A stretch of 64,000 bases of DNA, taken from Callorhinchus milii (taxonomy: Eukaryota). How positions within the stretch are numbered: the first letter of the stretch is position 1; every line of letters starts with the position of its first letter. The notes under the pieces are model-generated. The model was not told the DNA's origin. It was given only the letters and a program-made list of their open reading frames with translations, and ran no database searches. The translations under genes and the position numbers were made by a program. Shown in pieces: positions 8,475-47,805 of the stretch. The stretch covers positions 87,298,001 through 87,362,000 of the forward strand of contig NW_024704742.1 in assembly GCF_018977255.1 (NCBI RefSeq). The letters run 5' to 3'.

Positions 8475-9275
8475 GGAAGATACATTTGAATATACAGCAC
8501 AGAAACAGACCATTCGGCTCAACTGGTCTATGCCGGTGTTTATGCTCCACATGAGCCTCCTCCTGCTCTCCCTCAACTAAGCCTTCAAGCATAACCTTCA
8601 ATTCCTTTCTCCCTCATGTACCTATCTAGCTTTCTCTTAAATACATCTGTGCTATTTGCCTCAACAACCCCTTGTGGTAGCGTGTTCCATATTCCCACTA
8701 CTCTCTGTGTGAAGAAATTTCTTCTAATTTCCCTATTTGATCTATTTGTGACTATTTTATATTGATGGCCCCTGGTTTTGGTCTCCCCCACAAGTGGAAA
8801 CATCTTCCCTATATCTACCCTATCAAAACCTTTCATAATCCTGAAGACCTCTACCAGGTCACCCCTTACCCTCCTCTTTTGAAGAGAAAAGAGTCCAAGC
8901 ATGTTCAGCCTTTCCTGATGGGTATAACCTCTCAGTTCTGGGATCATCTTTGTGAATCTCCTTTGCACCCTCTCCAGTGCCTCTACATCTCTTCTGTAAT
9001 GTGGGGACCAGAACTGCACACAGTATTCTAAGTGTGGTCTAACCGAGGTTCTATAGAAGTTTACCATAACTTCCCTGTTTTTCATTTCTATCCCTCTAGA
9101 AATGAACCCCAATGCCTGGTTTGCCTTTTTTATGGCCTTATTAACCTGCGTTGCTACTCTTAGTGAATTGTGTATGTGTACCCCTAGGACCCTTTGCTCC
9201 TCTACCCCTTTTAGATTTTTATTTTCCAGGATGTATGTGACTTCCTTATTCGTTCTACCAACATCTACCACCTCA
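8475..9275 (-). mobile_element. CR1 LINE, 5'-truncated 3' end
   Basis: ORF 8585..9283: [43 protein letters not shown], followed by CR1-type 3' UTR. Confidence 0.93.
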
Positions 9276-10907
9276 GATGACATAGATCAGCAGAGCATCA
9301 TCACAAAGGGCAAGGTGTCCTGGTGAGACATTGTTTAACCAAATACCAATCTAATGAAGAAATAAAATCATGCTCAGATCCTCAGACAAAAAAACTCAAT
9401 TCTGAAACTCAATCATGTTCTTGTTGATACTGCACTGGCCTGATAGAACCACCAATGGCAAGTTGGGCAGTTCAAAGAAAAGGGAATTCTCTGAATTTTC
9501 CCTGCGCGCATTCATTTTCAGAAATGTCACAGTGCTGAAAAAATCAGAGCTTCAGAGCTGAATTCCAGCTCCGCCACTGTTAAGCACCCCGTAAGAAGGA
9601 TGCTATATAAATGTAAGTTGTTGTTGTTGAACATTTTAAATACCTGTAGTTTACAGAAGCACTTGTCTTTGAGGTGTATGCCTGCTGGGCAAGAAGTGAT
9701 GCTTGTGACGATCTAATCACCTGGATGTCAACTATTTTGGTTTCTTGCGCCCTAAAAATGTCTGACTTCCTGATAATGAGGTCACTGGCTACGACATGTC
9801 CTGCACAGTTAACATGATCCAGAACTCAGCCACATTTTCAGTGCGTGGGAGCTGGGCGGCAGTGGAAAGTAATCACCTGATTGTACACAAGTGCAGGGAA
9901 CCTGGCTATTGCGGTCCTGTTATAGCACTGGTTGGGATTTATTTTGATTCCAAACATTACCTTATAACCTGTATACTGTATTAAAAATATCTACAGGAGG
10001 ATCTGTCTATTTTTTAAAGAAGAAAGGTTGAATTAAATTAGGTCAATTTAATGGTATATTCAAATTTACCATCTGGGAGGGAAACTGCTTGAGTCATATT
10101 TGACGTAAATATTTTTAATTTACTTAAATATGATTAAGCTGGTTTCTGGCCTAACCCTTTCTTCTCAAACTTTCACCCACAAAATATACAATCAATTCAC
10201 TTTACAGTGTATTCTGTGAAGCGCTTTGAGATGTCTTGAAGATGTGATAAAGCGCTATATCAAATGCAATGATTATTATTATTAACCTTCTCAATGGGAT
10301 CAACCATAAAGCCAGGTCAGAGGTCTGAAGTTGTAAATCACGCCTACCAGACAGTGGGATCACTTTTTTTACTCTGAGGTTTTTAGTTTAAAAAACGCCA
10401 GCAACCTACAAGCAGAATGCTGATCTTGGCTCCATGGACATGACCTCAGACATACATCCATCTACCTTCTGATGTGAGCAATTTTGAATCCATCATTAAA
10501 ATTGATCCCATTGTGATAGTGTAAATCGTATTGAAATGCAATCCCTCACTTGAATTACATTCAATACATACATCTGAAAAAATGCTGTACTCTGTCCAGC
10601 GCCTTGGGAAGTCCTCCCAACGTGAAAGGCGCTATTACAAATGTAATCTTGTTGTTGTTGTACATGCCTGATTATGATAAAAGGAATTACAGTCACTTCT
10701 CCCTCCACTCCTTCCAAAACAACTACAAACAATTTGCCAGATATATCCTTCAGGATCTCTCTGTGAAATGCACTACACAGTTCACCAACAAAATACACAG
10801 TCAGCATACTTTACAGTAAATCCTGTGAAGCACTTTGAGACATCCTCCCAGTGGGAAGGGCACTACTTCAAATGCAAGTATTGATATTAATCTGATTATA
10901 TGCAATA

Positions 10908-12090: not shown

Positions 12091-12124
12091 GCTCTTCAGT
12101 CGTGAGGGGATGTTAAAACGGTGT

Positions 12125-13858
12125 AATAATAATAATCCTTGTATTTGATATAGCTTTTTTCACGTCTTCTAGACGTCTCAAAGCGCTTCACACAATATAC
12201 TATAAGGTGAATTGACTGTAAATTTTGTTGGCGAAATGCAACAGCCAATTGCCCATAGCAGTGTCCTACAGACAGTCGTGGATTGAAGTGACTAATTTTT
12301 TTTGAAGGAATTATTAGCCCTGGAAAAGCGATCTGACAATCAATCAAAAAATGGGTTCCTACTTACTGCTAGGTAAACAGTGACGTGTGGAGTAAGGAAA
12401 CTTGCTGGGAATCAAACCCAGGTCTAGAGAGAGTGCTCTAACCACTGAGCTACAGGTCTCCACTTTGATACTTCAGATCAGACAAAACTTTCTTTGAACC
12501 TGTGACTTAAATAAGAAGCTGGATTTGCTATGACAACAGAGCATCGGGAGTTACAATGACCTGCCCTGATTTACATAAAGGGCCCACAGGGACACAATGG
12601 ATTTTAATATGATTTTGACCTTGGACAGATGGTTTCTATCTAAAGTCAAATTTACTAATAAAGCTAGTGAAACACTATTTTACACCACATGGTCATTGAG
12701 TGCAAATCAAAATGAGTTAGTCTAACTTTGGGGGTGAGAAACGTAATGTTAAAATAAGAGTTCCAAAATGAGTCAATAATTATTGAAAAGCCAATCTTTA
12801 ACAACAAGTTGCATTTGTTTCACCCCTTCCCTCCTTCAAGGCCCATCTCAAGACTTTCCCCTTTGACCACGCCTTAGGTTATCTTCCTACCATTATCCCC
12901 TTTCCCCCACCCTTCTTGAATCCAGCCCCCAACTTGGGTTCAAATCCTAGACTGTCCAGAGCCTTGAGACATCCTCCCAATGTGAAATAATAATCCTTGC
13001 ATTTGATATGGCGCTTTTCACGTCAGGAGGACGTCCCAAAGCGCTTCACAGAACACACTGTAAAGTGAATTGACTGTATATTTGTGGGCGAACGCGGCAG
13101 CCAATTGCGCACAGCAATGTCCCACAAACAGTCGTAGATTGAAAATGACCAATTTTTTTTTATTATTGTTTTTGGTTTTGGAGGGCACCATATAAATGTA
13201 ATTTGTTGTTGTTGTTGTTGTACAAAAGATAATGGCAATACACAGCATTTGGCCCACAAAACATGTTGTACAATGAGTTAGTACAATCCAGGTCACTCTG
13301 AGATTACCAAAGATACTGAATGAAAATGAAGTTCTTCCCCAGACAGAAGGAAAAATGATCTGATGGCAAATCAAGTTATCCTAAACCTTTGCATTTCCTG
13401 TCACCTGGTTTCAGACTTCCAATGTTAGATAATGTGGAGGGAATAACCTCCAAATGCAAATAAATTATCTCCCCCTCCCCAGCAAAGTTTTTCTTATTTT
13501 ATTTATCATATTTTTATTTCATTTATTTAACTCTTGGATTGACTATATGTACCGCAACATTCTTCCCTCGTTCTGTGCAAACTGGGCAGGGACCATAAAG
13601 AAAAAATATAGAAGAATTCTATAAAACACATAAAATCAAAAGAATAGTTAAAGAAAAAGTATGACTAGTTAGAAATGAAATGGGAAATTCAGTCATAGAA
13701 AATTAACGTATGCAGGGATACAGAATGAGTATTTCTCCTTAATTTTTACAGAAGTGAGTGGTACTGAGACATTTTGTGTATCAGAGGGGTGTGTGCAGCA
13801 ATTAGAATGGATCGCTGTAGAAAAGGAAGGGATGCTTAATAAACTGATGAAACTCAAA
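12125..13858. repeat. Inverted duplication, left arm (partner 24715-26260)
   Basis: Reverse complement aligns to 24715-26260 across non-TE, SINE, L2 and CR1 pieces; ORFs 13018..13374(-) and 25166..25489(+) share near-identical text. Confidence 0.95.
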
Positions 13859-14749
13859 TTATTACTCCCGGAAAAGCAATCCGCCAATCGACTAACAACC
13901 GGTTCCTACTTACTGCTAGGTAAACAGAGGCGTGTGGGGTAAGGAAACTTGCCCAACATTTCGCCCTGACGGGAATCAAATCCAGGTCTTTCGCTTGCGA
14001 GGCGAGTGCTCTAACCACTGAGCAACAGGACTCCACACAGGTGTATATTTAAAATGAAATTGAAAAAGTAAACCCAGAACAATACTTAAGGATGTACAGT
14101 AGAATAAGAAGACACAGATTTAAAGTTTTTCTTTACTGGGAGGGTAATTAATGACTGGGACAGGTTGTCAGGAAGAGTGGTTGAAGCCAGGCCACTGAAT
14201 TCATTTAAAAAACAAGTTGATGCAGTGATGGGGGGACGGTAGGGTGGGTGTTCTGGAAGGAGGAGATTAGATGGGTTGAAGGGCCTTCTTCATCCAAACT
14301 GATCTTGTGATCTCTGCTATAACTATGAACTCAAAGTTCAGGTTGGTAGTCCAGGGAGGAAACCATTGTATTGTCGTAACTACCGTACTTTGGACGAGAT
14401 ATAAAACTGAGATCCCAACTGTTCATGAGAACATTAAATATACGTGTTCATAACATGGGCTGTCATTGTATCAATGTCCATTGTATTCAGTTGTCTGACA
14501 ATTACATTGACATTAGCAGACAATCCGACAGAAAAATTGGTATTCACTTCTTTGCTATTTGTGAGACACAGCTGTGACTACTGATCCGCTGATGTTCTGT
14601 CAGCTTGTTTATCAGACATTAAGGCCTGGATGAGTGCAAACTTGCTGCAGCAAGTTGAAGCTGTAGTCCTAGGCTCCCATCGATGGCTTCTCTCCTGCTG
14701 CTCTTATTTCCTCAACCTTCCCTGCTTATCCATAAGACTTACCGAACCT

Positions 14750-15400
14750 GTACGTTGATCCCCAGCTCTCCTTCCTACTCCACATCCGGTCCCTGACTAG
14801 GACCACTTTCCTCCACCTCCGTCACGTTGCCCATCTCTGACCGTACCGTACACCCAACGCAGCTGAAATCCTTGCCTTCATCACTTACTGCCTCGACTAT
14901 TGCAATGTCCTCCTCGCTGGTATCCCCAACTCCACAATCCATAAGATCCAACTAGTTCAAACTTTTTAATTAAACATCTGTATACTCACCTGCACTAAAC
15001 TCCGTACCCCTATCACAGCAGTCCTCACCAGGCTCCACTGACTCTCTATCCAGATGGATTGACTTCAAGAACCTCACACTCGTCTACAAATCCCTTCACG
15101 CCCTGGTATCTCCCTACCTCTCCGAGCTGCTTACTCCCCACTCCATCACCTGACCCCTCTGCTTGGCTGAATCCGGCTTCCTGCTTATCCCTTGTCCCCT
15201 CCGCTCCACCAATGATGGATGTGCTTTCAAACGCCTCCGTCCAAATCTTTGGAACTCTCTCCCTCAAACCTTCTGCCTAAAGGCTTTCCTCTTCAACTGT
15301 GCTTATGGTCGCCTCCCCTCTTCCAGCTCGGCATCAGACTCTGCTGCTGTTAAGTGCTTTGAGACGCTACCTCATGTGAAGGTTGCAAGCTGTTGTTGAC
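14750..15400 (+). mobile_element. Degenerate L2 LINE 3' fragment
   Basis: Similar to 6790-7472; LDYCN..LAG and PNLWNSLP remnants; TTG tail. Confidence 0.8.
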
Positions 15401-15904
15401 ACATTTGCCTTCAAATACAACATTTGACAGCAATTACATGTGAAACGCTTGAAGACATTTCAGCATTCTAGGCACTATTTCAAATGCAAGAGTAATATTT
15501 TTGCCTGCTGGCATGATGCAGACATTGGTGTTGTATTCATTTTTTTCTGTTCAACATGTTGTCATATGTCACATGAAACATATTCATAAAACCATCTTAG
15601 TTACATAAGACACCTCTGATGAGTTCATATCCATATCATATCCATCCTTCAAATGAGACATAAAACCTGCCTGTTCACCAAATAAAATAAAATAGATCAT
15701 TCACTTTATAGCTGTTTATGGGACATTTGTGTACACAAATTTGCTGCTGCATTTGCACAAAACACAATCGCTATACTTTACATAGCACCTATGAAGCACT
15801 TAGAGATGTCCTCCCAATTTGAAAGATGCTGTATCAAATGCAAGGATTATGATTATTATCTAATTGTAATATATTGTAACATATAATTAACTTTGTATTT
15901 GCAG

Positions 15905-16010
15905 ATGTTCTTCAGCTGAAGTTAGAAGACAATGTTTGCAACAGCCCAATTCTACAGTCATCCATTACAAGCGCTCTCCAAGCATGTGTGGCTCTTCTAT
16001 GTTTCACATT
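15905..16010 (+). CDS. DOCK8: DOCK8 coding exon 2 ((R)CSSAEVRRQCLQQPNSTVIHYKRSPSMCGSSMFHI)
   Basis: tttgcag|...|gtaagt; 106 nt, phase 2 to 0, joins exon 3 in frame; SSAEVRRQ resembles recalled DOCK8 N-terminal YSSAEIRKQ. Confidence 0.85.
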
Positions 16011-17975
16011 GTAAGTGCAGAATATGCTGTGGATCAACAGCTGCAACCATTTAGGATAAAAAGTACCTGATGGAAGTTCAGATGAAGAAAGTCCCTTGCT
16101 CCATTGACCTTGTGACCTTGTGATTCCCATGTTTCCAGGATACCTTAGGATCTTACAGTTACAATACCATACACATTTAGATGTATACAGCGCCTTTCAT
16201 GTTGGGAGGATGTCACAAAGCACTTGACACCACTGGCTGGGCACTCAAGCTGGGGTTGGGAGCCAAGGGGGTGGTGAGCGGAAACATGACCAAAGGTGTG
16301 GTTAAAGACCTTTCAAGATGAATGATATAGCTTTAAGTTGTTTCTTAAGGAGTCTTGTCCTCTGATCTGTACCACTCTCCAGTAACCCATACCCCACTGT
16401 GTAAAGAAACATTCTCTGTCCAAGATGTCTCTTTGCGTTTGATTTAATGCCTATAATTTCAAAGTCTTAAAGTAATTGATAGGAAATTGCTGTCAAGAGT
16501 AGTAAATACAGGCAACCAATCTACACAAAATAATGTTCATGAAGTGAACAGCCATGTGGTGAATGTCCAATTAATCTGGAGAACTTGTTGGCCAGGACAC
16601 ATGGAGAAACTCCCTTCTTGTTTTGAGTGTTGTCTTTACCAATTAACAGGAACAAGAAGCTGCAGGCGAAAATTCTGCAAGATTTCCCAACGAGTTCAGT
16701 GCTGTGAGAGTGAAACTAAAACACAAGAGACAGATAATAGGAAGTTTACCCAGTGCCAAAGAACATGCAGCAATGTAATGAACTATGTTTGGGACCTCAT
16801 TTGTCCTGGGCCTCTGGCTGTGCTGTGAGCAACACTCGAGTGTTGACACTTGGACATTACTCTCAGGGTAGGGTGACCACACTTAGGGTAAACTAGGTAG
16901 TTTATCAGGTAAACTAGGTAGGGTAAACTAGATCCAGGGACGTATATTTTCAAACTCACCAGAATTCTGATGCTGTCAGTTACTGGAAAAGCTTGTTGGA
17001 TTAAATGGCTGTATTTCTCTGATGAGTGTATCTGTTTTAGAATGCTATTATTATTGCTCAGTTTGTTGTTGGACTCAAGACGGGGCAAATTTGGCCAGGG
17101 ACTATCCCAGGAAATGGGGACATATGGTCATTCTATTCTTAGGGTAGCTCCAATCACGGTAGTTAATTACTGTATGCATGAGTAATCTACGATGCCACCA
17201 CATCCTAAACACATGCAGAATCTTTGATATGATAATTCCTGCTATTGACATAAAGTAAACGCCTGATACCTCGCTGCTCCGTGAGAAAAGGGTTCAGTGA
17301 CGAGTTATCTGGAGTAGGGAGCTAGGCATTTGTATAAATACGTAAATAAATGTGCCCGGGATATTGACAGCATGACGACTTAAGTGGTTGTCACAAGTTA
17401 AGCCAGGATCCAGTTATCAGAGTTCACAGAATAACTTAAGATGCTTCACCGGATTTAAAGTGCAGTTTCTGTGTATTTTGTAGGAGAAAGCAGCAGCCAG
17501 CTTTGCGCACAGCACAGTCTCACAAACAGCCGTGTGGAGTGAGTGACGGTTTTCTGTGAGGGATTGTCGGCCGGGACACAGATGCTGGAATATTGAAATT
17601 TGAAATTGATAAATTCTAGAATGAGGTACAAGTGATTATAAAAAGGTGACGATCTGGTCATGTGGGCAGTTGGTGAACCCAGATTTACAGGGAGGGCCAC
17701 GAGAGAATGAAGACAAAGGCAAAAGGTTTGAGTTTGGGGAATATTTTAGTGGGGGACGGAGAACAAAATTGAGAGACCAAAAATAGAGCATCTGAAATCG
17801 ATCCAAGAAAAAAATAATATGAAAAGAGTCCAGAGAAAGCTATAAGGAAGACTGATGATCCTGGCAGATGGAGAGAGTAATAATAATCCTTGCATTTTGT
17901 GTAGCCGCCTTATCATGTGTCAGTGCCTCTGAGCGCTTCACAACATTTGACTGTAAATTGTAGTGACTGTGTATT

Positions 17976-18345
17976 TGTAGCTTAGTGGTTTAGAGCACTC
18001 GCCTCGCAAGCGAGAGACCTGGGTTTGATTCCCGTTAGGGCGAAATGTTGGGCACGTTTCCTTACTCCACAATGCCTGTTTACCTAGCAGTAAGTAAGAA
18101 CCTGGTTGTTAGTCGTTTGGCGGATTACTTTTCTGGGGGTAATAATTGCTTCAAAAAAATAATAATGAATTGGTCACTTCAATCCACGACTGTTTGTGGG
18201 ACACTGCTGTACACAATTGGCTGCTGCATTTCACCCACAAAATATACAGTCGATTCACTTTTCAGCATATTCTGTGAAGCGTTTTAGGACGTCTCAAAGA
18301 CGCGATGAGGCGTTACATCAAATGCAAGGATTATTCTTATTATTT
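17976..18345 (+). mobile_element. tRNA-derived SINE, longer/older form (similar copies at ~12125-12463-, 20516-20862-, 25905-26260+, 32505-32872-, 13860-14036-; shorter forms at 21010-21292-, 51596-51875+, 57095-57405+, 62918-63133+)
   Basis: Same head and tail plus internal segment GTTTACCTAGCAGTAAGTAGGAACC. Confidence 0.88.
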
Positions 18346-21300
18346 GTAGGTGAATGGGCATCACTGAGCTTAAGTAAATCAATTTAGAGTTAAAAAATTT
18401 AAAATCTTCGCATTTAATATAGCATCTTATCACATCATGGAAACTTTTCAAAGTGACTGTGTATTTTGTGGGTAAATGCTGCATAAAATTTGCACACAGA
18501 GTCATCCCACAAACGAGCCATGTAATGAATGAGGTGACTATTGAAAGGGGAAGGAAAGTCTAGGGAAGCATTTTCTTTTCAACGTATTCAACGCATGTCT
18601 GTGCGTGTTTGTGGGAAAAAATCTAAATATTTGAAATACCTGTATTGAAATTATGACAGATTTTCCTGCTTCAGACAAAGCTTTGGTACAACACCAGTAA
18701 TAATTATCACATTGTATCCCAACAAATTTCCTAGCATTTTTTAAGCAAACCTCACATTACAGTGACTCGTAATATATAACTGCCATGTCCTTCGCTACTG
18801 AGATGTTGCTTATCTACCCTCCCTCCCCCATCCCCCGACAGTTGGTTGAAAGAATACTGCTTCCCAAATATAGGAACTTCCCCAGAGAATCAATGTTCAA
18901 CTTTGGCTGCGAGAATTGTTGTGTCTCTGCCCAGGCTCTGCCCATCTCAGGCAAGGACCACTGGAAAGGCAAATCTCACGCTCAGTTGGCAAGATTTCCA
19001 TGTCTTGAGGTTGTTTTATCAGATGGCAAAAGCAAAAGTCATTTTAAAGTGAGCTGGTGTCATTCCTTGTTGCGCACCATTTGTTGTGTGTGTTTTAAAA
19101 AAGTAATTTCCTCTTCCACATTCTTCAAATGTGAATCTAGACCGTGAATCTTGGTGAGCTCTTCAATGGTGGCAACCCTCCTCTATCTCCGAGGGACTTG
19201 AATTCTTTTTCACCCAGTTCAGTGAAGCCTGTCCTGTAACCAGTGCTCTGGCTCTTCTTTGACTCCCTCTTGTGGCGGTTCTCCGGACGCCCCAACTGTG
19301 GCCAACCGTCTCGCACTCTCTCCCTATGGTCCTAGTTTCTGAATCTTCTCCCATTCCCAGTCTGTGGGGGGGTGACTCTCATTTAGAGGCCCCACGTCAT
19401 ATTGCTGCATGTGTGGGGTAAGAGTAGAAAAAATGGTAAAGACAACCTTGCACTGTGTATGAAAATGCAAGCAGGTATCTGCCTACCCAAACAATCTAAT
19501 GCCTGTTAATTGCCTGTACTGCAGATTGGCAAAGTTCTAACACTGTATCACTGTTTCTATGCTGAAAGCAAGTGTTTAAATTATGTAGAGTTACGGCAGA
19601 CTGATCCACATGTAGGAAGGGGTACAGACTATACAACATGTATATAGTTTATAAATAGACCTAATATTTGTTAGGTCAGAGTATTAAGGGATTTGAGACA
19701 AGGGCAGATAATTGGTCTTGAGGTATACATCAGCCATGATTTTATGGAATGGCGGAATGGGCTTGAGGGGCTGAATGGCCTACTCCTGCTTCTATGTTTT
19801 TATAGAAGACATGTGGAAAGCAAGCTGAATGCCAGGTTTGAGGATGGGGATGTTTACAGTGCATTCTCCTTTCAAATCCTCGTCTGATTGTCCACCACTA
19901 TTCCCGACTGGATGTGGCAGCACTGCAGAGTTTTTCTCTGATGCTTTGGTTGTGGGCTCGCTAAGTGTGTTGGTTTTGGTGTTTGATATTCAGGCAGCCC
20001 TGTATTGCTGCATTACAAGGTTGGCGCCTCAGTCTAAGGTATGGCCGCTGCTGCTCCCAGGATGCCCTCCTACTCTCTTCACTGAACTAGGGTTGGTCTC
20101 CTGGCTTGATGGGAGTAAAGGATGTGCAGGCTATGAGTTTACAGGCTATAGTGGTGTACAGTTCTGCTACTGATTATGATCTATGGCCCTTCAAGCATGC
20201 CAAAAGGCACGTATGCATATATGTGTTTGTGTGTGTGTGTGTGTGTATGTATGTGGTGTGCGTCTGTGTGCTGAGCACCTGTGTGCATTTGTATGTGGCA
20301 AAAATTAATCCCTATATTTGGTATAGCACCTTTCACGTCAGGAGGATGTCTCAAAGCTCTTCACAGGATATACTGTAAAATGCAGTAACAGTGTTTTTTG
20401 TGGGCGAACGAGGAAGCCAATTTGCCCACAGCAATGTCCCATAAATAGCCATAAAGTGAATGACCAATTTGTTTTTATGCTGTGGTGCTACATGAATAGA
20501 GTAAATCTGGTGGTTTAATAATAATCCTTGTATTTGATATAGCGCTTTTCGTCTTCTAGACTTCTCAAAGTGCTTCACAGAATACACTGTAAAGTGAATT
20601 GACTGCTTATTTGTGGGTGAAATGCAGCAGCCAGTTGTATACAGCAGTGTCCCACAAGCAGTTATGGATTGAGTGACCAAATTATTATTACTTTTTTTTA
20701 AGGATTATTATCCCCAGAAAAGCGATCTGCCAATCGACTAACAACCATGTTCCTACTTACTGCTAGATAAACAGAGGCATGTGGAGTAAGGAAATTTGCT
20801 CAACATTTCGCCTTGCCGGGAATAGAACCCAGGTCTTTCGCTTGTGAGGCGTGTGCTCTAACATATGAGGTAATTCAAGTGGTGAATCATCTAAAAATGT
20901 TTTTAAAGCAACTTATTCCTCATATTTCTTAGTTCTCTACTCCTCCGGTACATTTCTGCTGTAGGTTAGTCATTGTGTGACGTGGATATTGAATAATAAT
21001 AATGTAAAATAGTAATCCTTGCATTTGATATAGTGCTTTTCACGTTTTCTAGACGTCTCAAAGCGCTTCACAGAATATAATGTAAAGTGAATTAACTGTA
21101 TATTTGTGGGCAAAACACTGCAGCCAATTGCGCATAGCAGTGTCCCACAAACAGTTGTGGATTTAGTAACCAAATTATTATTCTATTTTGTTTTTTTACT
21201 TGAGGGATTATTATCAGGCGTGTGGAGTAAGGAAACTCGCCGTCCTGGGAATCGAACCCAGCAATTGCTCTAACCACTGAGCTACAGGATTCCATAATAG

Positions 21301-22669
21301 AATAAACAGAACTTGTGTCCTCAAATTAATGCTCCCAAATGAAATTTAACTATATAGAATGAGAAGGCTTTTAAAGTGAGACTCACACTTACTTCCTGCT
21401 GCTTGCTTGTCAAACTATCAGTGACCTCAGTTCCGGAAAGTGCAACTGCCTGGTTTAGACATCTGTACCTCACTTTTGCAACTTAGTGTGTAGTTTGCAT
21501 GTAAGCAGGAAGACGGTCGAGTAACCACTTCTCCTTTTGCAAATTCGGTTGCATAGCTTTGTCCTCTCCTCTTTTTGCAAAGACGCCATTTTAAGAGCCA
21601 GGACTTTTCATCCATCCTCAACAGGTAGGAAAATTTCGCAAGTTAATGCCGAATGGATGCTGACATTTAGTGAGAGGTTTAAATGTGTTGGACTTTGCTT
21701 TACCGCTGCATATTTTGATAAGAATCTGCACAATATGCAAATTGTTTTTTGTTCTGACACAAAAATGAAGCATTTGATTAATTTCACATAGTTAGATCTA
21801 GTTTTAACCAATGTCCTGATGTTGTTATGATCTCACACAAGTGTTGGTAGGGGCTTGATATGCCAGCATTCAGGTGCACTAACCAGTATTTGTGAACAAT
21901 TAGGATTTGCAAACATCTAAGCAGTTCGCTGCCTTGAAGCATTTTATTCTGTGAAGGGCCTAGGTTAACAGGAAGCTGGTTAATGCACCCTGGATGTGTA
22001 TCAGTACAATTTACCAACTAATAAGAGATATTGGTGCAATAATGACGAGTGTAATCCTGCAAATGAGGGTGGACGAAAACTTTGTCGGAGAAGAGGGTTT
22101 CATAATGCTGCTTTTTTATTGAGACATGGAGGAACTACATTTGTCGGGGGTGCTGTGAATTTGTGTTTCCAGAGTCTCATGTTGCTAGCATCTTAATAAG
22201 TAATTGGCTTGAGTGCAATTCTAAACAGTATTTTGCGGCTATTCTTCCCAGTGTAGCGCAGTCAAAAATATTGAGAAAAGGTTAAAATCTATGTTATTCA
22301 GTATTATATTGGATTGTTGTTGGAAATCACTGCTGCTGATGATGTGACAAGTACATAGAATGTTACAGTGGAAATGAGCCATACTAATCCCTAATGGTGT
22401 TTATACTCCACAGACACCTCAACCCCTCCTATTCCCCTCTCCTATACCCCTCTATTGCCTTCTGTCTCATGCATGAATTAAGTTTCTTAAATACGTTGAC
22501 GTTTTTTTCTTCAACCACAGCTTCCGGCAGCACTTGCAGTGTTTGTTGTACTGTGCCAGCTTGTGGTCAGAGAGAGAGGGCTAGGAAGTCAGGACGGGAA
22601 GAGAATGCAAAGTGAGAGAATATGACGGGGCCCACAAGCTAAGGCTTATCATTGTCATTTGTTAGGAAT

Positions 22670-24990
22670 AGAACCATAGCAATTTACGGCACAGAAGAAG
22701 TCCATTCAGTCCATTGTGTCTGTGCCAGCTCCCTCAAGAGCAATCCTTTCTATCCTACTTACTAGCTATTTCCCCACACCACTTTAGCTGACTCTTTTTA
22801 AGGTATTTATCTAGATCCCTCTTGAAGGCCAATTTGGATTCTGCCTCAACCACTACTCCCGGCAGAACATTCCATATCCTAACTAGTGTGTGTGTGAAAC
22901 AAATTCTCCTAACTTGCCCATTTGCTCATTTACTAACCATCTTAAATTGGTTGCCCTCTTGTTACTGAACTAACCGACCAGTGCAAATAATTTTTACCTA
23001 TTGACTCTATCAAAACCCCTCATCATTTTAAAGACTCTGTCAGGTCACCCTCAACATTCTGTTTTCCAGAGGAAAGAGTCCCAGTTTTTCCAGTCTCCGC
23101 TTGTAAGTCAAACCCCTCATCCTTGGTATTATTCCCAGTAAATCTCTTCTGCACCCTCTATTGCCCTGACGCATTTCCTAAAGTGTAATGACCAAAACTG
23201 GACACAATATTCTAACTGTGGTCTAACTAAGAATATAATAGCAATATAACTAATGATAAGTAAAATGTAAAATGCAGTTGTGTTTCGTGCAGACATAGTT
23301 GAAGCATCCAGCCAAGATGGATGAAAGAGTGTGCTTATTTTAGTATTCTAATAATAACTTGGTCATTCAATCCACGACTGTTTGTGGGACGCTGCTGTGC
23401 ACAATTGGCTGTGATGTTTCGCACGCAGAATATACAGTCAATTCACTTTACACTATATTCTGTGAAGCGCTTTGAGACGTCTCAACAATGTGTCAAGATG
23501 CAATATCAAATGCAAGGATTATTATTATATTATTATAGAAGTTTAGCATTACCTCTGCTTTTATATTGTATACCCCCATTTACAAAAGAACTACTTGCAC
23601 TTATATAGAGCCCTCTACACAGGGTAGCATCTCAGAGTGCTTAACAGTGGCAGAGCCTGACACCGAACTGAGGTGAGGAGGTGGCCATAAGCATGATCGT
23701 AGAGGAAAGTTTTCAGGCGGGACTTGAAAAAGGAGAGAGAGGAGGCATATAGAGGGATTGAGGGAGTGTGTTCCAGAGTTTCGGGGCATTGTGGCTGAAA
23801 GCCCGACCTCCAATGGTGGGGTGGATGGTCCAAGGGCCAAGTAGGAGGCCAGTGCCAGTCGAGTGGAGGTGCTGGGTGGTGGATTGGGGAGTGAAGAGGT
23901 TGGAGAGGTAGGGAGGTACCAGAAGGGAAGAAACCTAAGATTCCATATTGAATATCATTTGCTATTTCTCTGCCCAATCAACTAATTGGCCTATGTCCCC
24001 CTGAAGTTGTTTATAATCTTCATTGTTAACTATACTGCCTAGTTTTTGGTCATCTGCAAATTTAGAAATGGTGCCACTTATGCTAGAATAATTTACATAA
24101 ATGGAGAAAAGCAACGGTCCTAACACTGACCATGGGGCACACCACCTATCTCCACTTTAAATAACAACCCTTTATTCTTACCATGTTTTCTATCCTTTAA
24201 CCAACCTTCTATCCATGCTGTTACCTCCCATTATTCGTATGCACCTTAATTTTGTTTTTACAAGCCTCCTATGCGACACCTCATCAAAAGCTTTCTGAAA
24301 ATCCATATATGCCACATTCACAGCATTCTCATCATCTATTTTCTCAATTATTTCTTAAGAAAAATAAAAAAATTAGACTTGCCAGGTAAGACTTGCCTTT
24401 ATCCATGCTGACTGTTAAGTGATCCATGATACTATCCCGCATGAAGGGCACTATATAAATACAAGTTGTTGTTTGTTGTCTTTAGTCAACCCATGTATTT
24501 CCAAGTGGTTATTAATATGCTGTATTATAGCTTCTAAAGGTTTTCTCGCTTGCTCCTGTTCTCCCTTTTAAAACAGAGGTGATACATTAGCTACTCTCCA
24601 ATCTCCTGGCACAACTTTGAACTGCAAAGATGTTTGCCAGAGCATCTACTATTTCCTCCCTGAATTCCCTCAACATTCTCAAGTGCTGCCATCAGGGCCT
24701 TGTGACGTGTTCCCTTTGAGTTCATTATTTTATTAAGCATCCCTTCCTTTCTATAACGATCTATTCTAATTGTTGCACACACCCCTCTGATACACACAAT
24801 GTCTCAGTACCATTCTCTTCTGTAAAAACTAAGAAGAACTACTCATTCTGTATCCCTGCATACTTTCATTTTCTTGACTGGATTTCCCAGTTCATTTCTA
24901 ATTAGCCATACTTTTTTTTTAACTATTCTTTTGATTTTTATGTGTTTTATAGAATCCTTCTATATTTTTCTTTATGTTCCCTGCCCAGAG
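22670..24990 (-). mobile_element. Old CR1 LINE (RT region plus 3' end) interrupted by a SINE (~23335-23535) and an L2 3' end (~23600-23935)
   Basis: - strand reads IYMDFQKAFDEVSHRRL (~24265-24312) and ISKFADD (~24050-24070); CR1 3' end at 22670-23230. Confidence 0.8.
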
Positions 24991-26260
24991 TGCACAGAAC
25001 TAGAGAAAAATGTTGCGGTACATATGGTCAATCCAAGAGTTAAATAAATGAAATAAAGATATGATAAATAAAATAAGAAAAACTTTGCTGGGGAGGGGGA
25101 GATAATTTATTTGCATTTGGAGGTTATTCCCTCCACATTATCTAACATTGGAGGTCTGAAACCAGGTGACAGGAAATGCAAAGGGTCAGGATGACTCGAT
25201 TTGCCATCAGATCATTTTTCCTTCTGTCTGGGGAAGAACTTCATTTTCGTTCAGTATCTTTGGTAATTTCAGAGTGACCTGGATTGTAATAACTCATCGT
25301 ACAACATGTTTTGTGGGCCAAATGATGTGCATTGCCATTATCTTTTGTACAACAACAACAAATTGGATTTATATAGTGCCTTTCACATTGGGAGGATGTC
25401 TCAAGGCTCTGGACAGTCTAGGATTTGCACCCAAGTTGGGGGCTGGATTCAAGAAGGGTGGGGGAAAGGGGATAATGGTAGGAAGATAACCTAAGGCGTG
25501 GTCAAAGGGGAAAGTCTTGAGATGGGCCTTGAAGGAGGGAAGGGGTGAAACAAATGCAAGTTGTTGTTGAGGATTGGCTATTCAATAATTATTGACTCAT
25601 TTTGGAACTCTTATTTTAACATTAAGTTTCTCACCCCCAAAGTTAGACTAACTCATTTTGATTTGCACTCAATGACCACTTGGTGTAAAATAGTGTTTCA
25701 CTAGCTTTATTAGTAAATTTGACTTTAGATAGAAACCATCTGTCCAAGGTCAAAATCACATTCAAATCCATTGTGTCCCTGTGGGCCCTTTATGTAAATC
25801 AGGGCAGGTCATTGTAACTCCCGATGCTCTGTTGTCATAGCAAATCCAGCTTCTTATTTAAGTCACAGGTTCAAAGAAAGTTTTGTCTGATCTGAAGTAT
25901 CAAAGTGGAGACCTGTAGCTCAGTGGTTAGAGCACTCACTCTAGACCTGGGTTTGATTCCCAGCAAGTTTCCTTACTCCACACGTCTCTGGTTTACGTAG
26001 CAGTAAGTAGGAACCCATTTTTTGATTGATTGGTCGATTGGCAGATCGCTTTTCCAGGGGTAATAATTCCTTCAAAAAAAAAAGATTGGTCACTTCAATC
26101 CATGACTGTTTGTAGGACACTGTTGTGGGCAATTGGCTGTTGCATTTTGCCAACAAAATATACAGTCAATTCGCTTTACAGTGTATTCTGTGAAGCGCTT
26201 TGAGATATCTCGACGACGTGATAAGGTGCTACATCAAATGCAAGGATTATTTTTATTATT
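24715..26260. repeat. Inverted duplication, right arm (partner 12125-13858)
   Basis: As for the left arm; lacks the SINE fragment present at 12988-13183. Confidence 0.95.
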
Positions 26261-27469
26261 TTGTCAGGAAACGAAGGCCCGAAGATATGATTTGTTGCCT
26301 TCACCATAATTTCAGGCACAAAGTCCCAGAGTCCTACCAGGAGTCAAAAGTAATCTTTATTCACTTGGGTTAATGCCATAAACTAGAGATGAGAATGGCT
26401 GTGACTCAGACTTGTTTTTCTAGGTGCCAAACTTTTCAGTTGAAATAAAAGATCCCACCCTTCACTTTTTCAAAATCAAATAGCGATAGAGAACTTAATT
26501 CTGATAAAAAATTCTAAATCATTGAACTAAAGAATCTTGCTACTGGATTTGTTTTTATCCAACACAATTGGTACATATTTTTCAATACCTGTTTGACCAG
26601 AAAAAAAATGATTTTATCTCAGGGGCACCACAAACCACAAGGCCATCATTCTAAATGTTAAAAAGTATGTATCAAGCAATGTAGTGGAATCAGTAACTTG
26701 GATACAATCAAACTGAGAAGTGCATCAGCCTGGCTCAGTTGGTGGCCCTCTTGCCTCAGTCTGGGACTCATACGTTTTAAGATGGCAATACAGAGCTGGG
26801 GATATGCTACATTATCAGAGGTGAGACATTAAACCGATTCACATCTGTCTGTCCAGGTGGACATTAAAAATCCCATGTCACTATTTGAGGAGAGAAAGGA
26901 ATTTCTCCCAGTGTCCTGGACAACAATCCTCCAGACAAAATTTGTCATTGATTCATGGCTGTTTGTGTGACATTGCTATGTGCAAGTTGGCTGCCATGTT
27001 TGCCCACAAATACACAGTCACTCCACTTTACAGTATACCCTGTGAAGCCCTTTGAAACAGCTCGACGATATGATAAAGCGCTATACCAACATCAACAACA
27101 ACAAGATTTCATTTATAGAGCGCCTTTCACCTTGGGAGGACGTCCCAAGGCGCTGGACAGTTGGGTCGGGACCCAAGCAGGCGGGAAATGTTCAGGATGA
27201 GGGGAGGGAAGGGAGGGAGCGAGGAGGGGGTAGAGAGTCGAAAGGGGAGCTGAAGGCACAGTTGAAGAGAAGATGTATGATATCAAATGTAAGGATTTAT
27301 TATAAGTGCTAAACTGCACAATCTCAATATTTAATTTACATATAACAGACGATGTAACAAGACAGATTAGTCACACACCGACCATAGTTTCTCTCCTCAG
27401 TACACAAATGAAAGATACAGAAATGTATACCATAAGGTGAAATGCACCTCTCCTTATTGCACCCCACAT

Positions 27470-27908
27470 ACTTACCCGGACCAAACTCCGTATCCACATC
27501 TCACCCATTCTGGCCAGGCACCACTGGCTCCCGATTACTGAACGGATCGATTCCAAGATCCTCACACTCGTATTCAAATCCCTTCACTCTCTGGCACTTC
27601 CCTATCTCTCCAACCTCCTCACTCCCTAATCCACGACCCGGCGCCTCCGCTCGACTGGCACCGGCCTCCTGCTCATCCCTTGCACCTTCCACCTTACCAT
27701 CGGAGGTCGGGCTTTCAGCCACTACACTCCAAAACTCTGGAACGCTCTCCCTCAATCCCTCCGCCTTGCCCCCTCTCCCCTTTTTCAAATCCCGCCTGAA
27801 AACCTTCTTCTTTGACCACCTCCCTCCCCCAGCTTGGAATCAGGCTCTGCCACTGTTAAGCGATCTGAGACGCTATTCTGCGTGGAGGACGCTATATAGT
27901 TGTTGTTA
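27470..27908 (+). mobile_element. L2 LINE 3' fragment
   Basis: HWLPITERIDSKIL-like frame, FFKSRLKTFFFD, TTG tail. Confidence 0.8.
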
Positions 27909-29024
27909 TTATACAAATTGTAATCAAACTCAAATATAGTAATGAACAATGTAACAAAGTGTACTCAGCACTGTGCTTCCAGTTTGATATCGAACTGTCT
28001 TGAAGAAGGAAATGAAATGAAAGTTACGTGGATGTGTGGATAAATCTTAAAGGGTCACGGAAATCACAGGATGTTGCGCGAGTATTTTTCTTTGTGTGAA
28101 CACTATTTGAATCTCACTCTCCAGATCACTCCCCATACCTTTTTATGTACTGTTTCCCTTTTTTTTAGCATCTATCTGATTCCATTGAAAATAATTCATG
28201 GATTCTGCCTCAACAACACATTATTGTTAAACTTAGAACTTTGGCGCTTACAGATTCGAAACAATAAATGAGACTAACTCTTGACTTGTCTGAATTAGAA
28301 GTAGGTGTAAATCAGTGAATTCATCCCAATTTATCCTACATGGATCAGTTAAATGTAAGCCAAGAGACTACATCCTTAAAATCTTCAACTGGTTCATAGT
28401 CTGCTTTGAAAGTTTGGTTGAAATACTTAAATGGTTCAATTTCTACTTCTTTAGCAATAATGTAGATAACAATCTTGGGGTTAACAGTGTAGAATTCTTG
28501 CATCCTGTGTTGTGTTCTCTAGGGTGAGGTCTTTGAACAGTAACAACTAATTGTGCCCCTACCGATGATCCAGAAATAAATCTGAGCCTTGGCTTGCTGA
28601 AGACTAAGACACACACTGTAATACTTGTAAATATGAATAAGAAAACACTAGAATGGGATAAAATTGTCATGTTAATGCTCCGAGACACTTCCCCTGCATG
28701 AAAGGCACTATATTATAATGATATAGTTAAAATTATATAAACGCAAGTTGTTGTCATAGGATCATCTTCCTCATATAATAATAATCCTTGCATTTGATAT
28801 AACGGTTTTCACGTCTTCTAGATGTCTCAAAGCACTTCACAGAATATATTGTAAAGTGAATTGACTGTATAATTGTGGGCAAAACGCAGCAGCCAATTGG
28901 TATATAAAACACTGTTAGTGCAAAAGTAAGTTTTGTTTTATTCAAAGCGTGGAATATTTTGGAACTGAATCATACAGTATGATTGAAAAATCAATTGACT
29001 TCAGCATTCTTAAAAGCTTCTACT

Positions 29025-29365
29025 CTGGTGCTCAGTGGTAGCGCTCTCATCTCTAAGTCAGAAGGTTGTGGGTTCAAGTCCCACGTTGAGACTTGGAATC
29101 ACATTGTCTAAAATGACACTCCAATGTGGTGCTGAGGGTGTGCTACATTGTTGGAGGTGCTGTCCTTCAGATGATACGTTAAACCGAAGTCCCGTCTACC
29201 TATTCAGGTGGACATTAAAGATCCCATGATGTTATTCAAACAAAGAAGGGAGTTTTTACTGGTGTCCTGGACAACAATCCCCCAAATAAAATTGGTCACT
29301 CACTCCACGGTTGTTTGTGGGACATTGCTGGGTGCAACTGGCTGCTGTGTTTCGCCCACAAACTA
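29025..29365 (+). mobile_element. SacSINE1/DeuSINE-like element (other decayed copies at ~1355-1680-, 4245-4710-, 26725-27090+, 31030-31330+, 35790-36200+, 38130-38460+, 43550-43960-, 51975-52320+, 60685-60970+)
   Basis: tRNA-like head GTGGTAGCGCTCTC..CTAAGTCAGAAGGTTGTGGGTTCAAGTCCCAC; Deu-type core GATGA.ACGTTAAACCGA.GTCCCGTCT...AAAGATCCCATG (family assignment from memory). Confidence 0.75.
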
Positions 29366-32300
29366 CTTTTCTTGATGACATGCTCTCCTTCCCCTCCCCC
29401 ACCCCCACATCTGCTCTACTCTTGATGGAACAGTATGCGATAGGAAACTCTCAAGGCAGGGAGTTGTCAGCATAAACCCATATCTTGTTGTTTCATGTTG
29501 TGCTGGGCTACTTGGCAATAATGTATTTTAATGTTTGTGCAAGAAATGGATATAGAATAATTCTAAATGTGTTGGAAGGTCTCCTGTAAGATACTGCCTT
29601 CATTAAACAAACAACTAGTCTATGAACATGATATGCATTAAATCAAACCATCTCATCGAAGTTTTCTGATGCATAGTATACATTGGTAGTGGGGTGCCCA
29701 TTGGTTTTTGGACGTCCATTTGCCAAAGTTCCTGATATGAGGACCTGGATTAATCAGCTGATTTGTGGCACTGGACTTGAACATTCAGCCCATCAAGGTG
29801 GCTGTCATTGAACCGATTTGAGGAATATAACAACCCAGAGTAACTGAAGGGGGGATAAAAATATAATCCTTGTATTTGATTTAGCATTTCTCATATCAGA
29901 AGAGTGTCTCAAAGCACTTCATATGATTTACTTTAAAGAGTAATGAGTATTTTGTAGCTGAAAACAACATCCAGTTAGGTATTCAATAGTTAATTAGGTG
30001 ATTGGCGGATTGCGTTTCTGGGGATAATAATCCCTTCAAAAAAAAAATGATTTGGTCACTCAATCCATAGTTTGTAGTACACTGCTGTGCAAAATTGGCT
30101 GCCGTGTTTTGCCCATGTAATATACAGTCAATTCAGTTCACAATATATTACCCCACCGTTTGAAACTCCATCCCAAATTCCCTTCATTTCGCTCCCTCCC
30201 TTGCCTCCTTCAAGGCACATCTCAAAACCCTCCTCTTCGACCGAGCCTTCGCAACCCTCCTACCCTACCCTCCACCTTCCCCGAACCCAACCCCAGCTTG
30301 GGTCCAAATCCCTGACTATCCAGTGCCTTGGGACATCCTCCCAATGTGAAAGGCGCTATACAAATGTAATTTTATATTGTATTGTACACATACCAAATAG
30401 CTCCTGGATAATACACTAGTAATGGTCTGTTTTCATATCTAAGTAAGTACTATACTATCCAGTATATGTCCCGACACTGCCCACAGTTATGTGTAAATAA
30501 TAGGAACATTCAATTTAATTAACTTCAGACTGACTCTTCCAAATTGAATTGAATTTTCAGCAGCTTGATGGCTAAGTTAGTAAACTCACTGCTTAGATTG
30601 AATCACATACCAGTGTCTTCCGGAGAGGAAGGAGAACAGTATTTTTTAAAAAAACCTATCAAAGTGTGGGCGTGTGTAAAAGCAGGAAGCCAGTCAAAGT
30701 GAGGGCGGTCCTGATGTTGAAAGCATCCGATGTAGAAAGCAGGCCCAAACCCAATATGTCCATTACTCATCAAACAAAAGTAAAAGCACAGAAATATATA
30801 GCATGGAAGAAGGTCATTCAGCCCATTGAGTCTGTGCTGGCTCTGTGAAAGAGCAATTCATTTAGCTCCATTGACCTTTTCCCCAAATCTCTACAAATTA
30901 CTGCCTTTTAGATAACTGTCTAGATCCCTCTTAAAACCTAATATGAATGTTGCCTCAACCACCACATCCAACAGGGCATTCCACTTTCCACATCCCAACA
31001 AGTCCGTGTAAGAATAATTCCACCTAAACTCATGTCGGAGGTGCCATCCTTTACGATTGAGACATTAAACTGAGGTCCCGTAGAACTACTCAAAAAGAGA
31101 AGGGAGTTTCTCCCGGTGTCCTGGCCAACAATGCCCCAGATAAAATGGATCATTCATTTGTCCATTGCTCATCAAACAAAAGTAAAAGCTGTTTGTGAGA
31201 TACTACTGTGCACAAATTGACTGCCAATTTATCTACAAAGTTCACAGTGACACACTTAACAGTATAAACCTGTGAAGCACTTTGAAATGTCTTCCTGACA
31301 AGAAAGGTGCTATATCAATTGTGAGTATTCTATTTAAATTGATGCCCTCTAGTCACAAATAAAACTTAGTCACTGCAAGTGAGAAGTAGCCATAGTCTAA
31401 TAAATCTGCCCTTGTCTAAATATGGGCCAAATATTGTTTTGCATTTGCAAAATCAGTTTTCAATTCAAGGACATTCTTAATTTTAATAAAAATAAAGTTG
31501 TATTCTGTTGTATAATGTCACACATACTCCATTATGTTGATGCAAAGAACCAGCACAGATTGCCAGTCTCTCTCCCTCTCTCTCTCCTTGCATCAGTGTA
31601 GAAAGTGTTCTGCAACAGAGATCGTAATGTCCCTGATACTTTGGGTTATTTTGTGCAGGCTCCCGTAGCCTGTACAGGAGTGATAAGAACTGTTTAATAC
31701 TGATGCAGCAAAAAAGCTCAGCGCCATAGCTTACCACGTGGTGTGATGCCAATCTTGCCAGGTCACCACGGATCTTGTAATGTGGGCGGTAAAATCTGTG
31801 AGTGATGCATTGCAGGCCCATTTGCACCCACTTCCTAGCATCTAGTGCCGACATGAGGTTGCCAAACATCTCTGAACTTATCATGGGTCTCGCAAGTGTA
31901 AAGCATTTATAATCAGGATTAAAGGGCAACAGAGTGAGGGACAATATGGTGTAGGTTGCAGATCAATACTCGGTGTGTTTCCAGTTTTGCCTGTACTGCT
32001 CAGGTTAAAGGCTAAAGGGGAACTTCCCATGCTGCAAATTAGTTGGTGACTAATGATGACAGACAGAATGTGAATTTTTGCAGAATTTTTGGGGAGAAAA
32101 ATGCAACACGTGCTGTAATTTGCCTGAAGAAATCCATCAGTGTTTCAGTTGTTGTCCCATCCCAAAGCTGGCTCTGAGGATCATTGATGTTACTGCCAGT
32201 GTCCGGGTTCCCATCTTATCTTAATTTGTACTTTTAAAGCCACCAAAAAGATGGAATTTTTAACATTCTGATAATAGCATTTGTCATCATTGCCTCATCA

Positions 32301-33060
32301 GGTCATTTTTTCAGCCCATTATTTTAGTGCTGGTTTTGTTGGAAAATTACTTATTTTACTGATTTTGGTAAAAGGGGTAGTCATTCTAACAGTAACCCTA
32401 CCCCTCACTACAACCACCACCATTGTACACTTGCTTGTGAGTCACTCAAATATATTGTCACTACACTTTACCAAAAAAAAAGCACTTGGAGATGTTTCAA
32501 CGTGATAATGATAATAATCCTTGCATTTGATATAGCGCCTTATCACATTGTTGAGACATCTCAAAGCGCTACACAGAATATATTGTAAAGGGAATTGATT
32601 GTGTATTTTGTGGGTGAAACGCGCCAGCCGATTGGGCACAGCAGTGTCCCACAAACAGCCGTGGATTGAATGATCGAATTCTTATTTTTTTAAGGGTTTA
32701 TTACCCCGGGAAAGCGATCCACCAATCGAATAACAACCGGGTTTCTACTTATTGCTGGGTAAACAGAGGTGTGTGGAGTAAGGAAATTTGCCTAAGCTTT
32801 CACCCCGCCCAGAAAATGAACCTGGGTCCTCTTGCTTGCGAGACAAGTGAGGTAACCACTGCGCTACTGGACTTTACTGCTATATGTACTATAAAGTGCT
32901 GTATATACTATAGGTTGCTATATGTACAATTAGTATTATTATAGTACAGTAAATTTAGTTCATGTTTGATTTATGTAAAAGCTGCTTTTAAATGGGTAAG
33001 TTTCCCATTTACATCCTGAATACATATTAATCAGCGGTTCCTTCCCTTCATGTTCCGCAG

Positions 33061-33236
33061 CCTTCATTTTATGAACCGGTAGTGCCATTGGACTATGAAG
33101 ACTTCATGATGGCACATTTCAGCCTTACAGATTCTGAGCTCCAGCAGGACTTGGGGGACTTCCCGGATGATGACCTGGAGATTACTTTTGTTCCCAGAGA
33201 ATGTCATACGCTACAGCCTTCCATGCCAGAAGAAGG
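33061..33236 (+). CDS. DOCK8: DOCK8 exon 3 (PSFYEPVVPLDYEDFMMAHF...DLGDFPDDDLEITFVPRECHTLQPSMPEEG)
   Basis: ccgcag|...GG|gtaaag; 176 nt; LGDFxDDDL and TLQPSxPEEG match recalled DOCK8 better than DOCK6/7. Confidence 0.95.
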
Positions 33237-47623: not shown

Positions 47624-47805
47624 CTGGACAGAAAGAGTTGATTTTATTTTGGTCAACTAAGTATCTGACACAATCGGAAACCCATCACCATGCTTAAGAG
47701 TATCCTAACCAAACAGTTCCATAATAATAATAATCCTTGCATTTGATATAGTGCCTTATCACATCTTCAAGACGTCTCAAAGCGCTTCACAGAATATACT
47801 GTAAA

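What the first reader, a model, noticed from the sequence alone, without database searches (positions are those of the whole stretch)
12125..26260. ~1.6 kb inverted duplication bracketing DOCK8 exon 2
Seen: 12125-13858 is the reverse complement of 24715-26260. It includes non-TE sequence and shared private SINE deletions, so it is a segmental copy and not two independent insertions. The ~10.9 kb spacer holds exactly one identified DOCK8 exon (exon 2, 106 nt, not a multiple of 3). The centre looks almost identical and the ends more diverged, consistent with arm-to-arm gene conversion. A CR1 remnant continues past the right arm's edge (24715) but stops at 13858, suggesting the right arm is ancestral. 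Inference: the pre-mRNA could form a long stem that loops out exon 2 (skipping, back-splicing, A-to-I editing), and recombination between arms would invert exon 2.
Basis: partly seen in the sequence, partly recalled or inferred. Interest (0 to 1): 0.7.

Follow-up and report, generated by a model that had tools for sequence, protein, structure and literature searches.

The report
Repair-copied inverted repeat around DOCK8 exon
In the elephant shark, a 1.4-kb piece of DOCK8 intron 2 also sits backwards in intron 1, where it splits a short repeat in two, likely because a DNA break was repaired from a nearby look-alike repeat; this is a known kind of repair scar, and the predicted effect on exon 2 splicing is only hinted at.

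Summary
The inverted pair is real, in Callorhinchus milii DOCK8. The true copy is shorter than stated: 12223-13858 versus 24715-26158, 63 substitutions in 1430 columns. The outer 100 nt belong to two unrelated SINE copies, so their divergence is not conversion. The left arm splits one SINE: tail at 12124-12222, tailless head resuming at 13857 after a 2-nt microhomology. A LINE remnant runs across 24715, so the right arm is the donor. Best reading: a break in SINE A was repaired from inverted SINE B 14 kb away, copying 1.4 kb (DDSA/SDSA type). One later conversion tract is likely (1.8% versus 6.3%; permutation p=0.012). Exon 2 is spliced in normally in RNA contigs of two studies. Contig lengths in one run hint at an exon 1-3 junction; this is indirect, and no cause is shown. 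The spacer probably also holds an alternative first exon. Editing, back-splicing and inversion were not shown. The scan noted similar repair copies elsewhere in this genome. Known kind, probably neutral.

The parts
12124..12222 (-). 3' tail part of SINE A, native to the acceptor site; not duplicated
   Evidence: 16 of 99 columns differ from the right SINE, 0 shared private variants; 91.1% to the copy at 20516 vs 84.5% to the right SINE
12223..12310 (-). Template-switch zone: SINE A letters replaced by SINE B letters (chimeric SINE)
   Evidence: First shared private variants at 12229, 12241, 12253, 12267 and a shared gap at 12298, against 8 other copies
12223..13858 (+). Left arm: inserted inverted copy in intron 1 (about 1430 copied nt plus a later 196-nt SINE insert)
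   Evidence: 63 substitutions in 1430 columns against 24715-26158
12383..12986 (+). Low-divergence tract, likely later gene conversion; longest identical runs 174 nt (12431) and 131 nt (12809)
   Evidence: Best interval 12383-13189, 11 of 610 vs 52 of 820, permutation p=0.012; runs
12987..13183 (-). Young 5'-truncated SINE inserted in the left arm only, after the duplication
   Evidence: 196-nt gap in the right arm; 95.8-97.4% to four young copies in the window
13857..14032 (-). Tailless head half of SINE A; resumes right after the arm, 2-nt (AA) microhomology at 13857-13858
   Evidence: Starts at position about 201-204 of the reference copy; the only tailless head piece among 41 SINE hits; tRNA-like head 13961-14032
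15905..16010 (+). DOCK8 exon 2, 106 nt, conserved coding exon
   Evidence: Matches full-length C. milii DOCK8 P0130; covered end to end by RNA contigs in X6 and X8
21501..21624 (+). Candidate alternative non-coding first exon, donor CAG|GTAGGA; 5' limit uncertain
   Evidence: X5 contig starts at 21595, exactly 30 nt before the donor; X6 contig covers 21501-21621 plus 26 unplaced letters
23950..24900 (-). Decayed LINE reverse-transcriptase remnant (CR1-like by recalled motifs) running across the inner edge of the right arm
   Evidence: Translation continuous across 24715; 62.6% to another remnant at 52821-53157; Pfam RVT_1 only weak, E=0.17
24715..26158 (+). Right arm: donor segment in intron 2
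   Evidence: Continuous with its flanks on both sides: LINE remnant inside, SINE B tail outside
25909..26260 (+). SINE B, the homeologous template for the first switch
   Evidence: Full-length hit to the reference SINE; tRNA-like head 25909-25971
33061..33236 (+). DOCK8 exon 3; holds the start of the annotated short isoform at 33106
   Evidence: 100% to C. milii DOCK8

Best explanation
A 1.4-kb piece of DOCK8 intron 2 is present as an inverted second copy inside a SINE in intron 1, likely made when a break in that SINE was repaired from an inverted sister SINE 14 kb away, and it is probably neutral. Shown: the two halves of SINE A flank the copy; the copy begins in a chimeric SINE and ends at a 2-nt microhomology; the right arm is continuous with its flanks. 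Inferred: the left broken end paired with SINE B, synthesis ran through SINE B's head and 1.2 kb of neighbouring intron, and the new strand rejoined the other broken end, without inverting the spacer. Later a young SINE landed in the left arm and one non-crossover conversion tract likely re-homogenised about 600 nt up to that insert. The arms would pair strongly in the long pre-mRNA, but exon 2 is included in the transcripts seen, and any skipping would be a side effect.
For: Split SINE: tail part 12124-12222 has 0 shared private variants with the right SINE, while 12223-12460 has 12 plus shared gaps. The head half at 13857 starts at the consensus position where the left SINE had reached (alignment) and is the only tailless head among 41 hits. 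Tail and head of SINE A both fit one intact copy at 20516 (91.1% and 88.6%). Donor direction: the LINE frame crosses 24715. No new tail or target duplication at either junction. One 8-nt gap in the new copy at 12336 lies between short repeated letters, as the DDSA model predicts. Two more small inverted local copies lie in the same window, so such events are frequent here. Conversion. Neutrality: G-U lean not significant and shared by controls; exon 2 already bracketed by 46 other inverted repeat hits (48 in all); exon 2 included in X6 and X8; the short isoform is also annotated in two sharks.
Against: No independent read or outgroup check of the left junctions or of an empty site. Genome-wide copy number is untested (no genome held). 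The length of one X6 contig (147 nt) equals the value predicted if an exon 1-3 junction exists and exon 1's Ile codon is ATC, which speaks against pure neutrality. The duplex is by far the strongest around any of the 13 exons examined. The low-divergence tract could reflect constraint rather than conversion.
Confidence: 0.75

Rival explanations
1. Same origin, but the arms now pair in the pre-mRNA and cause measurable exon 2 skipping, as in TBXT. An exon 1-3 transcript would read a 24-codon upstream frame that stops 23 nt before the short-isoform start, so it could feed the 2038-aa form or be degraded.
For: In X6 the exon 2 contig starts 30 nt inside exon 1 (a fork at exon 1's end), the exon 3 contig starts exactly at 33061 (paths converge; depth 25.9 vs 11.8 for exon 2), and the 147-nt contig of the alternative exon fits a merge with a path sharing 7 final letters. 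Duplex energy -280 to -375 kcal/mol per 165-200-nt block. Non-Alu inverted copies induced skipping in mouse Tbxt (PMC10901737, passages).
Against: The junction letters were never read; the 26 loose letters and exon 1's codon are assumed. X8 has the same fork at exon 1's end but an unbroken exon 2-3 contig, so that fork has another cause there. The arms are 10.9 kb apart, the right one 8.7 kb past the exon 2 donor; in TBXT the 1,448-bp pair won over the 4,188-bp pair. A skip, if real, could predate the duplication.
Confidence: 0.15
2. The copy was templated by RNA: the broken end primed on SINE B in the nascent DOCK8 transcript, or a LINE enzyme reverse-transcribed intron RNA from SINE B's tail.
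For: The new top strand is complementary to the sense pre-mRNA, so the orientation allows it (sequence). Transcription-coupled insertions with a DNA/RNA hybrid are reported (10.1101/2022.09.30.509517, abstract).
Against: Retrotransposition from SINE B's tail would have copied that tail, but the left tail is a different SINE copy, and it would not explain the tailless head at 13857. An RNA-primed repair variant cannot be told from DNA-templated repair here, as the copy holds no spliced junction.
Confidence: 0.06
3. The pair marks an inversion: breakpoint duplications of a past inversion, or a spacer that flips in the population.
For: Arms with identical runs of 174 and 131 nt. Among the 10 members of the C. 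milii cluster, the two newer RefSeq forms start in exon 3, while the 2014 round had forms with exons 1-2. Human inversions between inverted repeats recur (PMC3961182, passages).
Against: In the window both inner flanks are collinear with their ancestral neighbours and exon 2 is in sense orientation. The UniRef gene models seen also lack exons 1-2, so the annotation gap is weak evidence. An inversion would remove exon 2 and the alternative first exon from a conserved immune gene (role recalled).
Confidence: 0.03
4. Assembly artefact, or two insertions of a composite mobile element.
For: The left junctions were not seen in independent reads; genome-wide copy number is unknown.
Against: 63 substitutions, several indels and a private SINE insert separate the arms; the left arm keeps two bases of the LINE frame that the right arm lost; the donor is fused to its flanks on both sides.
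Confidence: 0.02

Closest known systems
Duplication-dependent strand annealing (DDSA; Fiston-Lavier et al. 2007, not seen; described in PMC3276153, passages)
   Same: A break inside a repeat is repaired from another copy of that repeat, duplicating the DNA next to it; repeat at one end; a gap between short repeats in the new copy.
   Different: Described in Drosophila, there for a 37.5-kb tandem duplication; here a 1.4-kb inverted intronic copy in a cartilaginous fish, with both halves of the broken repeat still readable.
Repair-mediated duplications (Pace, Sen, Batzer, Feschotte 2009; PMC2671141, parts 1-3 of 8 read)
   Same: A transposable element interrupted by a copy of nearby DNA; microhomology, no poly(A), no target duplication; mostly intronic and neutral.
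   Different: Their confident class is within 5 kb and at most 619 bp; this one is 1.4 kb, 10.9 kb away (their 'distant' group), and starts by long repeat-to-repeat homology.
TBXT AluY-AluSx1 pair that loops out exon 6 (PMC10901737, passages)
   Same: Inverted sequences in both introns around one exon.
   Different: There the pair is 1,448 bp apart, the skip is in frame and was proven by deletion; here the arms are five times longer, 10.9 kb apart, the skip would shift frame and is not shown.
Exonic circular RNAs with reverse-complementary flanks (PMC6376117, passages)
   Same: Exon 2, long flanking introns, reverse-complementary matches.
   Different: Single-exon circles come from long exons (medians 169-253 nt); this exon is 106 nt, and no back-splice break was seen in the two runs whose exon 2 contigs were listed.

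Membership tests
DDSA-type duplication | Same repeat family at one end of both donor and new copy, giving a chimeric repeat | tested here: met
   Switch from 0 to many shared private variants at 12223-12229
DDSA-type duplication | Break lay inside the repeat; its other half flanks the far end of the copy | tested here: met
   Tailless head at 13857, in register
DDSA-type duplication | Re-invasion traces (gaps bounded by microhomology, short tandem repeats) in the new copy | tested here: inconclusive
   One 8-nt gap at 12336 fits, but later slippage would look the same
Repair-mediated duplication (Pace 2009) | Insertion interrupts a transposable element whose halves are collinear | tested here: met
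Repair-mediated duplication (Pace 2009) | Microhomology, deletion or filler at the breakpoints; no poly(A), no target duplication | tested here: met
   2-nt AA at 13857-13858; about 88 nt of SINE A replaced
Repair-mediated duplication (Pace 2009) | Donor within 5 kb (their working cut-off for the confident class) | tested here: not met
   Arms 10.9 kb apart; so not filed in their proximal class
Repair-mediated duplication (Pace 2009) | Only one other copy in the genome; empty site in an outgroup | not testable with these tools
   No genome held; two copies within the 64-kb window
Inverted repeat under gene conversion | Patchy identity beyond chance | tested here: met
   Permutation p=0.012, run-length p=0.003
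Inverted repeat under gene conversion | Arm-specific variants exchanged between arms among haplotypes or species | not tested
   Needs phased reads or a second species
TBXT-like exon-looping pair | Exon-skipped transcript exists | tested here: inconclusive
   Indirect contig-length hint in X6; none in X8
TBXT-like exon-looping pair | Removing one arm abolishes skipping | not testable with these tools
   Needs a minigene

The most novel reading that the evidence does not exclude
A single repair accident built a 1.4-kb RNA stem around DOCK8 exon 2 that diverts part of the long transcripts into an exon 1-3 form, whose short upstream frame stops 23 nt before the short-isoform start; gene conversion keeps the stem tight. 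It would be a natural, non-transposon counterpart of the TBXT switch in the immune gene of a cartilaginous fish.
Probability: 0.15. Interest if true: 0.62.

Novelty: new member of a known kind. Interest (0 to 1): 0.3.

Why it matters
As it stands it is a clean, readable example of repeat-primed repair copying in a cartilaginous fish: both halves of the broken SINE, the switch point and the microhomology survive. It adds to signs that such copies are common in this genome. It would matter more if the stem shifts DOCK8 isoforms, since that would show repair copies, not only transposon pairs, creating splicing changes in nature. I found no paper on this locus in two searches (15 of 38 listed; 12 of 775 listed; titles and abstract starts only).

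Tried and rejected
Own-genome search: no genome held, so copy number is known only for the window. Exon 1 is not in the window. Run search: 24 listed, none on record as RNA; X5, X6, X8 are RNA by guess only. I laid 4 of the 24 (X5, X6, X8, X1) on 14100-34000. The output was swamped by repeats (18,712 joints and 238,209 pieces not shown), so only the 32 listed piece rows were usable; none of X1's 8 listed pieces crosses an arm junction, and the left arm was outside the stretch. Change counts (A>G 28-35 and T>C 42-50 in X5, X6, X8; 37 and 55 in X1) come mostly from other SINE copies and say nothing on editing. The letters at the junctions into exon 3 were not obtained, so the exon 1-3 join and the partner of the alternative exon stay open. 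Selection for RNA pairing: G-U vs A-C mismatch types 23 vs 14 (p=0.19), 8 vs 2 in the outer half (p=0.11); 8 control pairs 135 vs 103; rejected as evidence. CpG decay does not explain the two halves (2 of 21 and 3 of 42 differences). Rfam found only four tRNA-like SINE heads; no tandem array but a TG run. The LINE remnant's family name could not be confirmed by library: Atlas no hit, Pfam RVT_1 E=0.17 in 1 of 4 pieces; 'CR1' rests on recalled motifs. No usable substitution rate came from the search listing, so no date in years is given. Retrotransposition from SINE B's tail and staggered-break inversion were considered and rejected (see rivals).

Full report
What is there. Self-comparison of the window gives one dominant inverted pair: 12124-12987 against 26258-25381 and 13184-13858 against 25380-24715. 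The alignment has 79 substitutions in 1529 columns and a 196-nt piece only in the left arm. The translation of exon 3 (33061-33236) is 100% identical to Callorhinchus milii DOCK8. The full-length RefSeq protein of 2014 (P0130, 2106 aa) places exon 2 at 15905-16010, 106 nt, and exon 1 outside the window. The left arm ends 2046 nt before exon 2; the right arm starts 8704 nt after it.

The real boundaries. Both arms seem to start at a SINE tail, but the first 99 columns are two different SINE copies. They differ at 16 sites, share no private variant against 8 other copies, and several other SINE copies in the window match the left tail better. The copy is therefore 12223-13858 against 24715-26158, 63 substitutions in 1430 columns, 4.4%.

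The split SINE. Directly after the left arm, at 13857, a SINE head half begins. It starts at the consensus position that the left SINE has reached at about 12310 (alignment). It is the only tailless head among 41 SINE hits in the window. The left tail and this head both fit one intact copy at 20516, at 91.1% and 88.6%. The junction has a 2-nt AA overlap between donor and SINE. On the right, a decayed LINE reading frame runs across 24715, and the left arm keeps two bases of that frame which the right later lost. Its CR1 label is from recalled motifs; Pfam support is weak. So the right arm is the donor, and the spacer is not inverted in this haplotype.

Mechanism (inferred). A break in SINE A was repaired by pairing with inverted SINE B, 14 kb away. 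Synthesis replaced about 88 nt of A with B, ran through B's head and 1.2 kb of intron, and rejoined A's other half by microhomology. This is the DDSA model as described in PMC3276153 (passages; the original 2007 paper was not seen) and is close to the repair-mediated duplications of PMC2671141 (parts 1-3 of 8), though longer and more distant than their confident class. The orientation also allows the nascent transcript as template (10.1101/2022.09.30.509517, abstract and one section); this locus cannot decide it. Two smaller inverted local copies lie in the same window.

Later history. A young SINE, 95.8-97.4% like four sister copies, inserted in the left arm. Divergence is 15 of 676 outside that insert and 42 of 665 inside it (Fisher p=2e-4, split chosen after looking). 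With the split searched freely, the best low interval is 11 of 610 against 52 of 820, permutation p=0.012; a run-length test gives p=0.003. One conversion tract ending at the insert is the simplest reading. Constraint is not excluded, but mismatch types give no significant sign of selection for RNA pairing (23 vs 14, p=0.19; controls 135 vs 103).

RNA. I laid three runs guessed to be RNA and one of unknown kind, 4 of 24 listed, on 14100-34000. Repeats swamped most tables, so only listed contig pieces were used. In X8 one contig joins exon 2 to exon 3. In X6 one contig holds exon 2 with 27+3 letters upstream and 30 downstream. Neither breaks at exon 2's ends, as a retained back-splice path would make it; contigs drop rare forms, so this is no proof of absence. 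Single-exon circles also favour longer exons (PMC6376117, passages). An X5 contig starts at 21595, exactly 30 nt before a donor at 21624 that I had flagged from the sequence beforehand (note), and an X6 contig covers 21501-21621 with 26 loose letters. This points to an alternative first exon inside the spacer. A short form starting in exon 3 is annotated in C. milii and in two sharks, so it likely predates the duplication.

Against my reading. The X6 contig is 147 nt long. Under 31-mer graph logic (my inference, checked on three other contig ends), that is the length expected if it merges with a path sharing its last 7 letters. Exon 1, which ends Ile-Asn-Arg, would do so if its Ile codon is ATC; other cases give 149, 151 or 154. 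With the fork at exon 1's end and the convergence at 33061, this hints at an exon 1-3 junction in X6. The letters were never read, a dead end could give the same length, and X8 shows the fork without the convergence. I put the skip's existence near even odds and its being caused by the arms lower. Such a join would stop 23 nt before the short-form start (sequence; P0130). The duplex is the strongest around any of 13 exons; 46 other inverted hits also bracket exon 2. In TBXT the nearer pair, 1,448 bp apart, dominated over one 4,188 bp apart (PMC10901737, passages).

Inversion. The longest identical runs are 174 and 131 nt. No data here test polymorphism. The newer RefSeq forms in the cluster lack exons 1-2, which could reflect a flipped or misassembled spacer in that assembly, but the UniRef models seen lack them too. 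Human precedent: PMC3961182 (passages).

Verdict. A real, well-resolved repair copy with likely later conversion; a new member of a known kind; function not shown. Earlier notes of this scan describe like events elsewhere in this genome and led me to the Pace and TBXT papers; I did not test their loci. No supplements were read. Interest 0.3.

Noticed in passing
window 21380-21624 (+): Candidate alternative promoter and non-coding first exon of DOCK8 inside the spacer, with several GGAA (ETS-like, recalled) motifs; contig ends in X5 and X6 fit a used donor at 21624.
   Followed up: partly
window 1703-2040 vs 3066-3428: Another inverted local copy, 81% over 365 columns, two copies in the window; looks like an older repair copy.
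   Followed up: partly
window 8224-8323 vs 9190-9289: A 100-nt inverted copy, 96%, at the ends of a LINE remnant; two copies in the window.
   Followed up: partly
proteins P0126, P0127 vs P0130, P0134: The newer RefSeq DOCK8 forms of C. milii in the cluster start in exon 3, while the 2014 round had exons 1-2; cause unknown.
   Followed up: no
protein P0002 residues 1972-1989; window 59774-59827 and other SINEs: The C-terminus of this UniRef gene model matches SINE translation, likely an annotation error.
   Followed up: no
   Followed up: no
window 47721-48355: A young SINE appears nested in an older SINE, with repeated letters at both sides of the insert.
   Followed up: no
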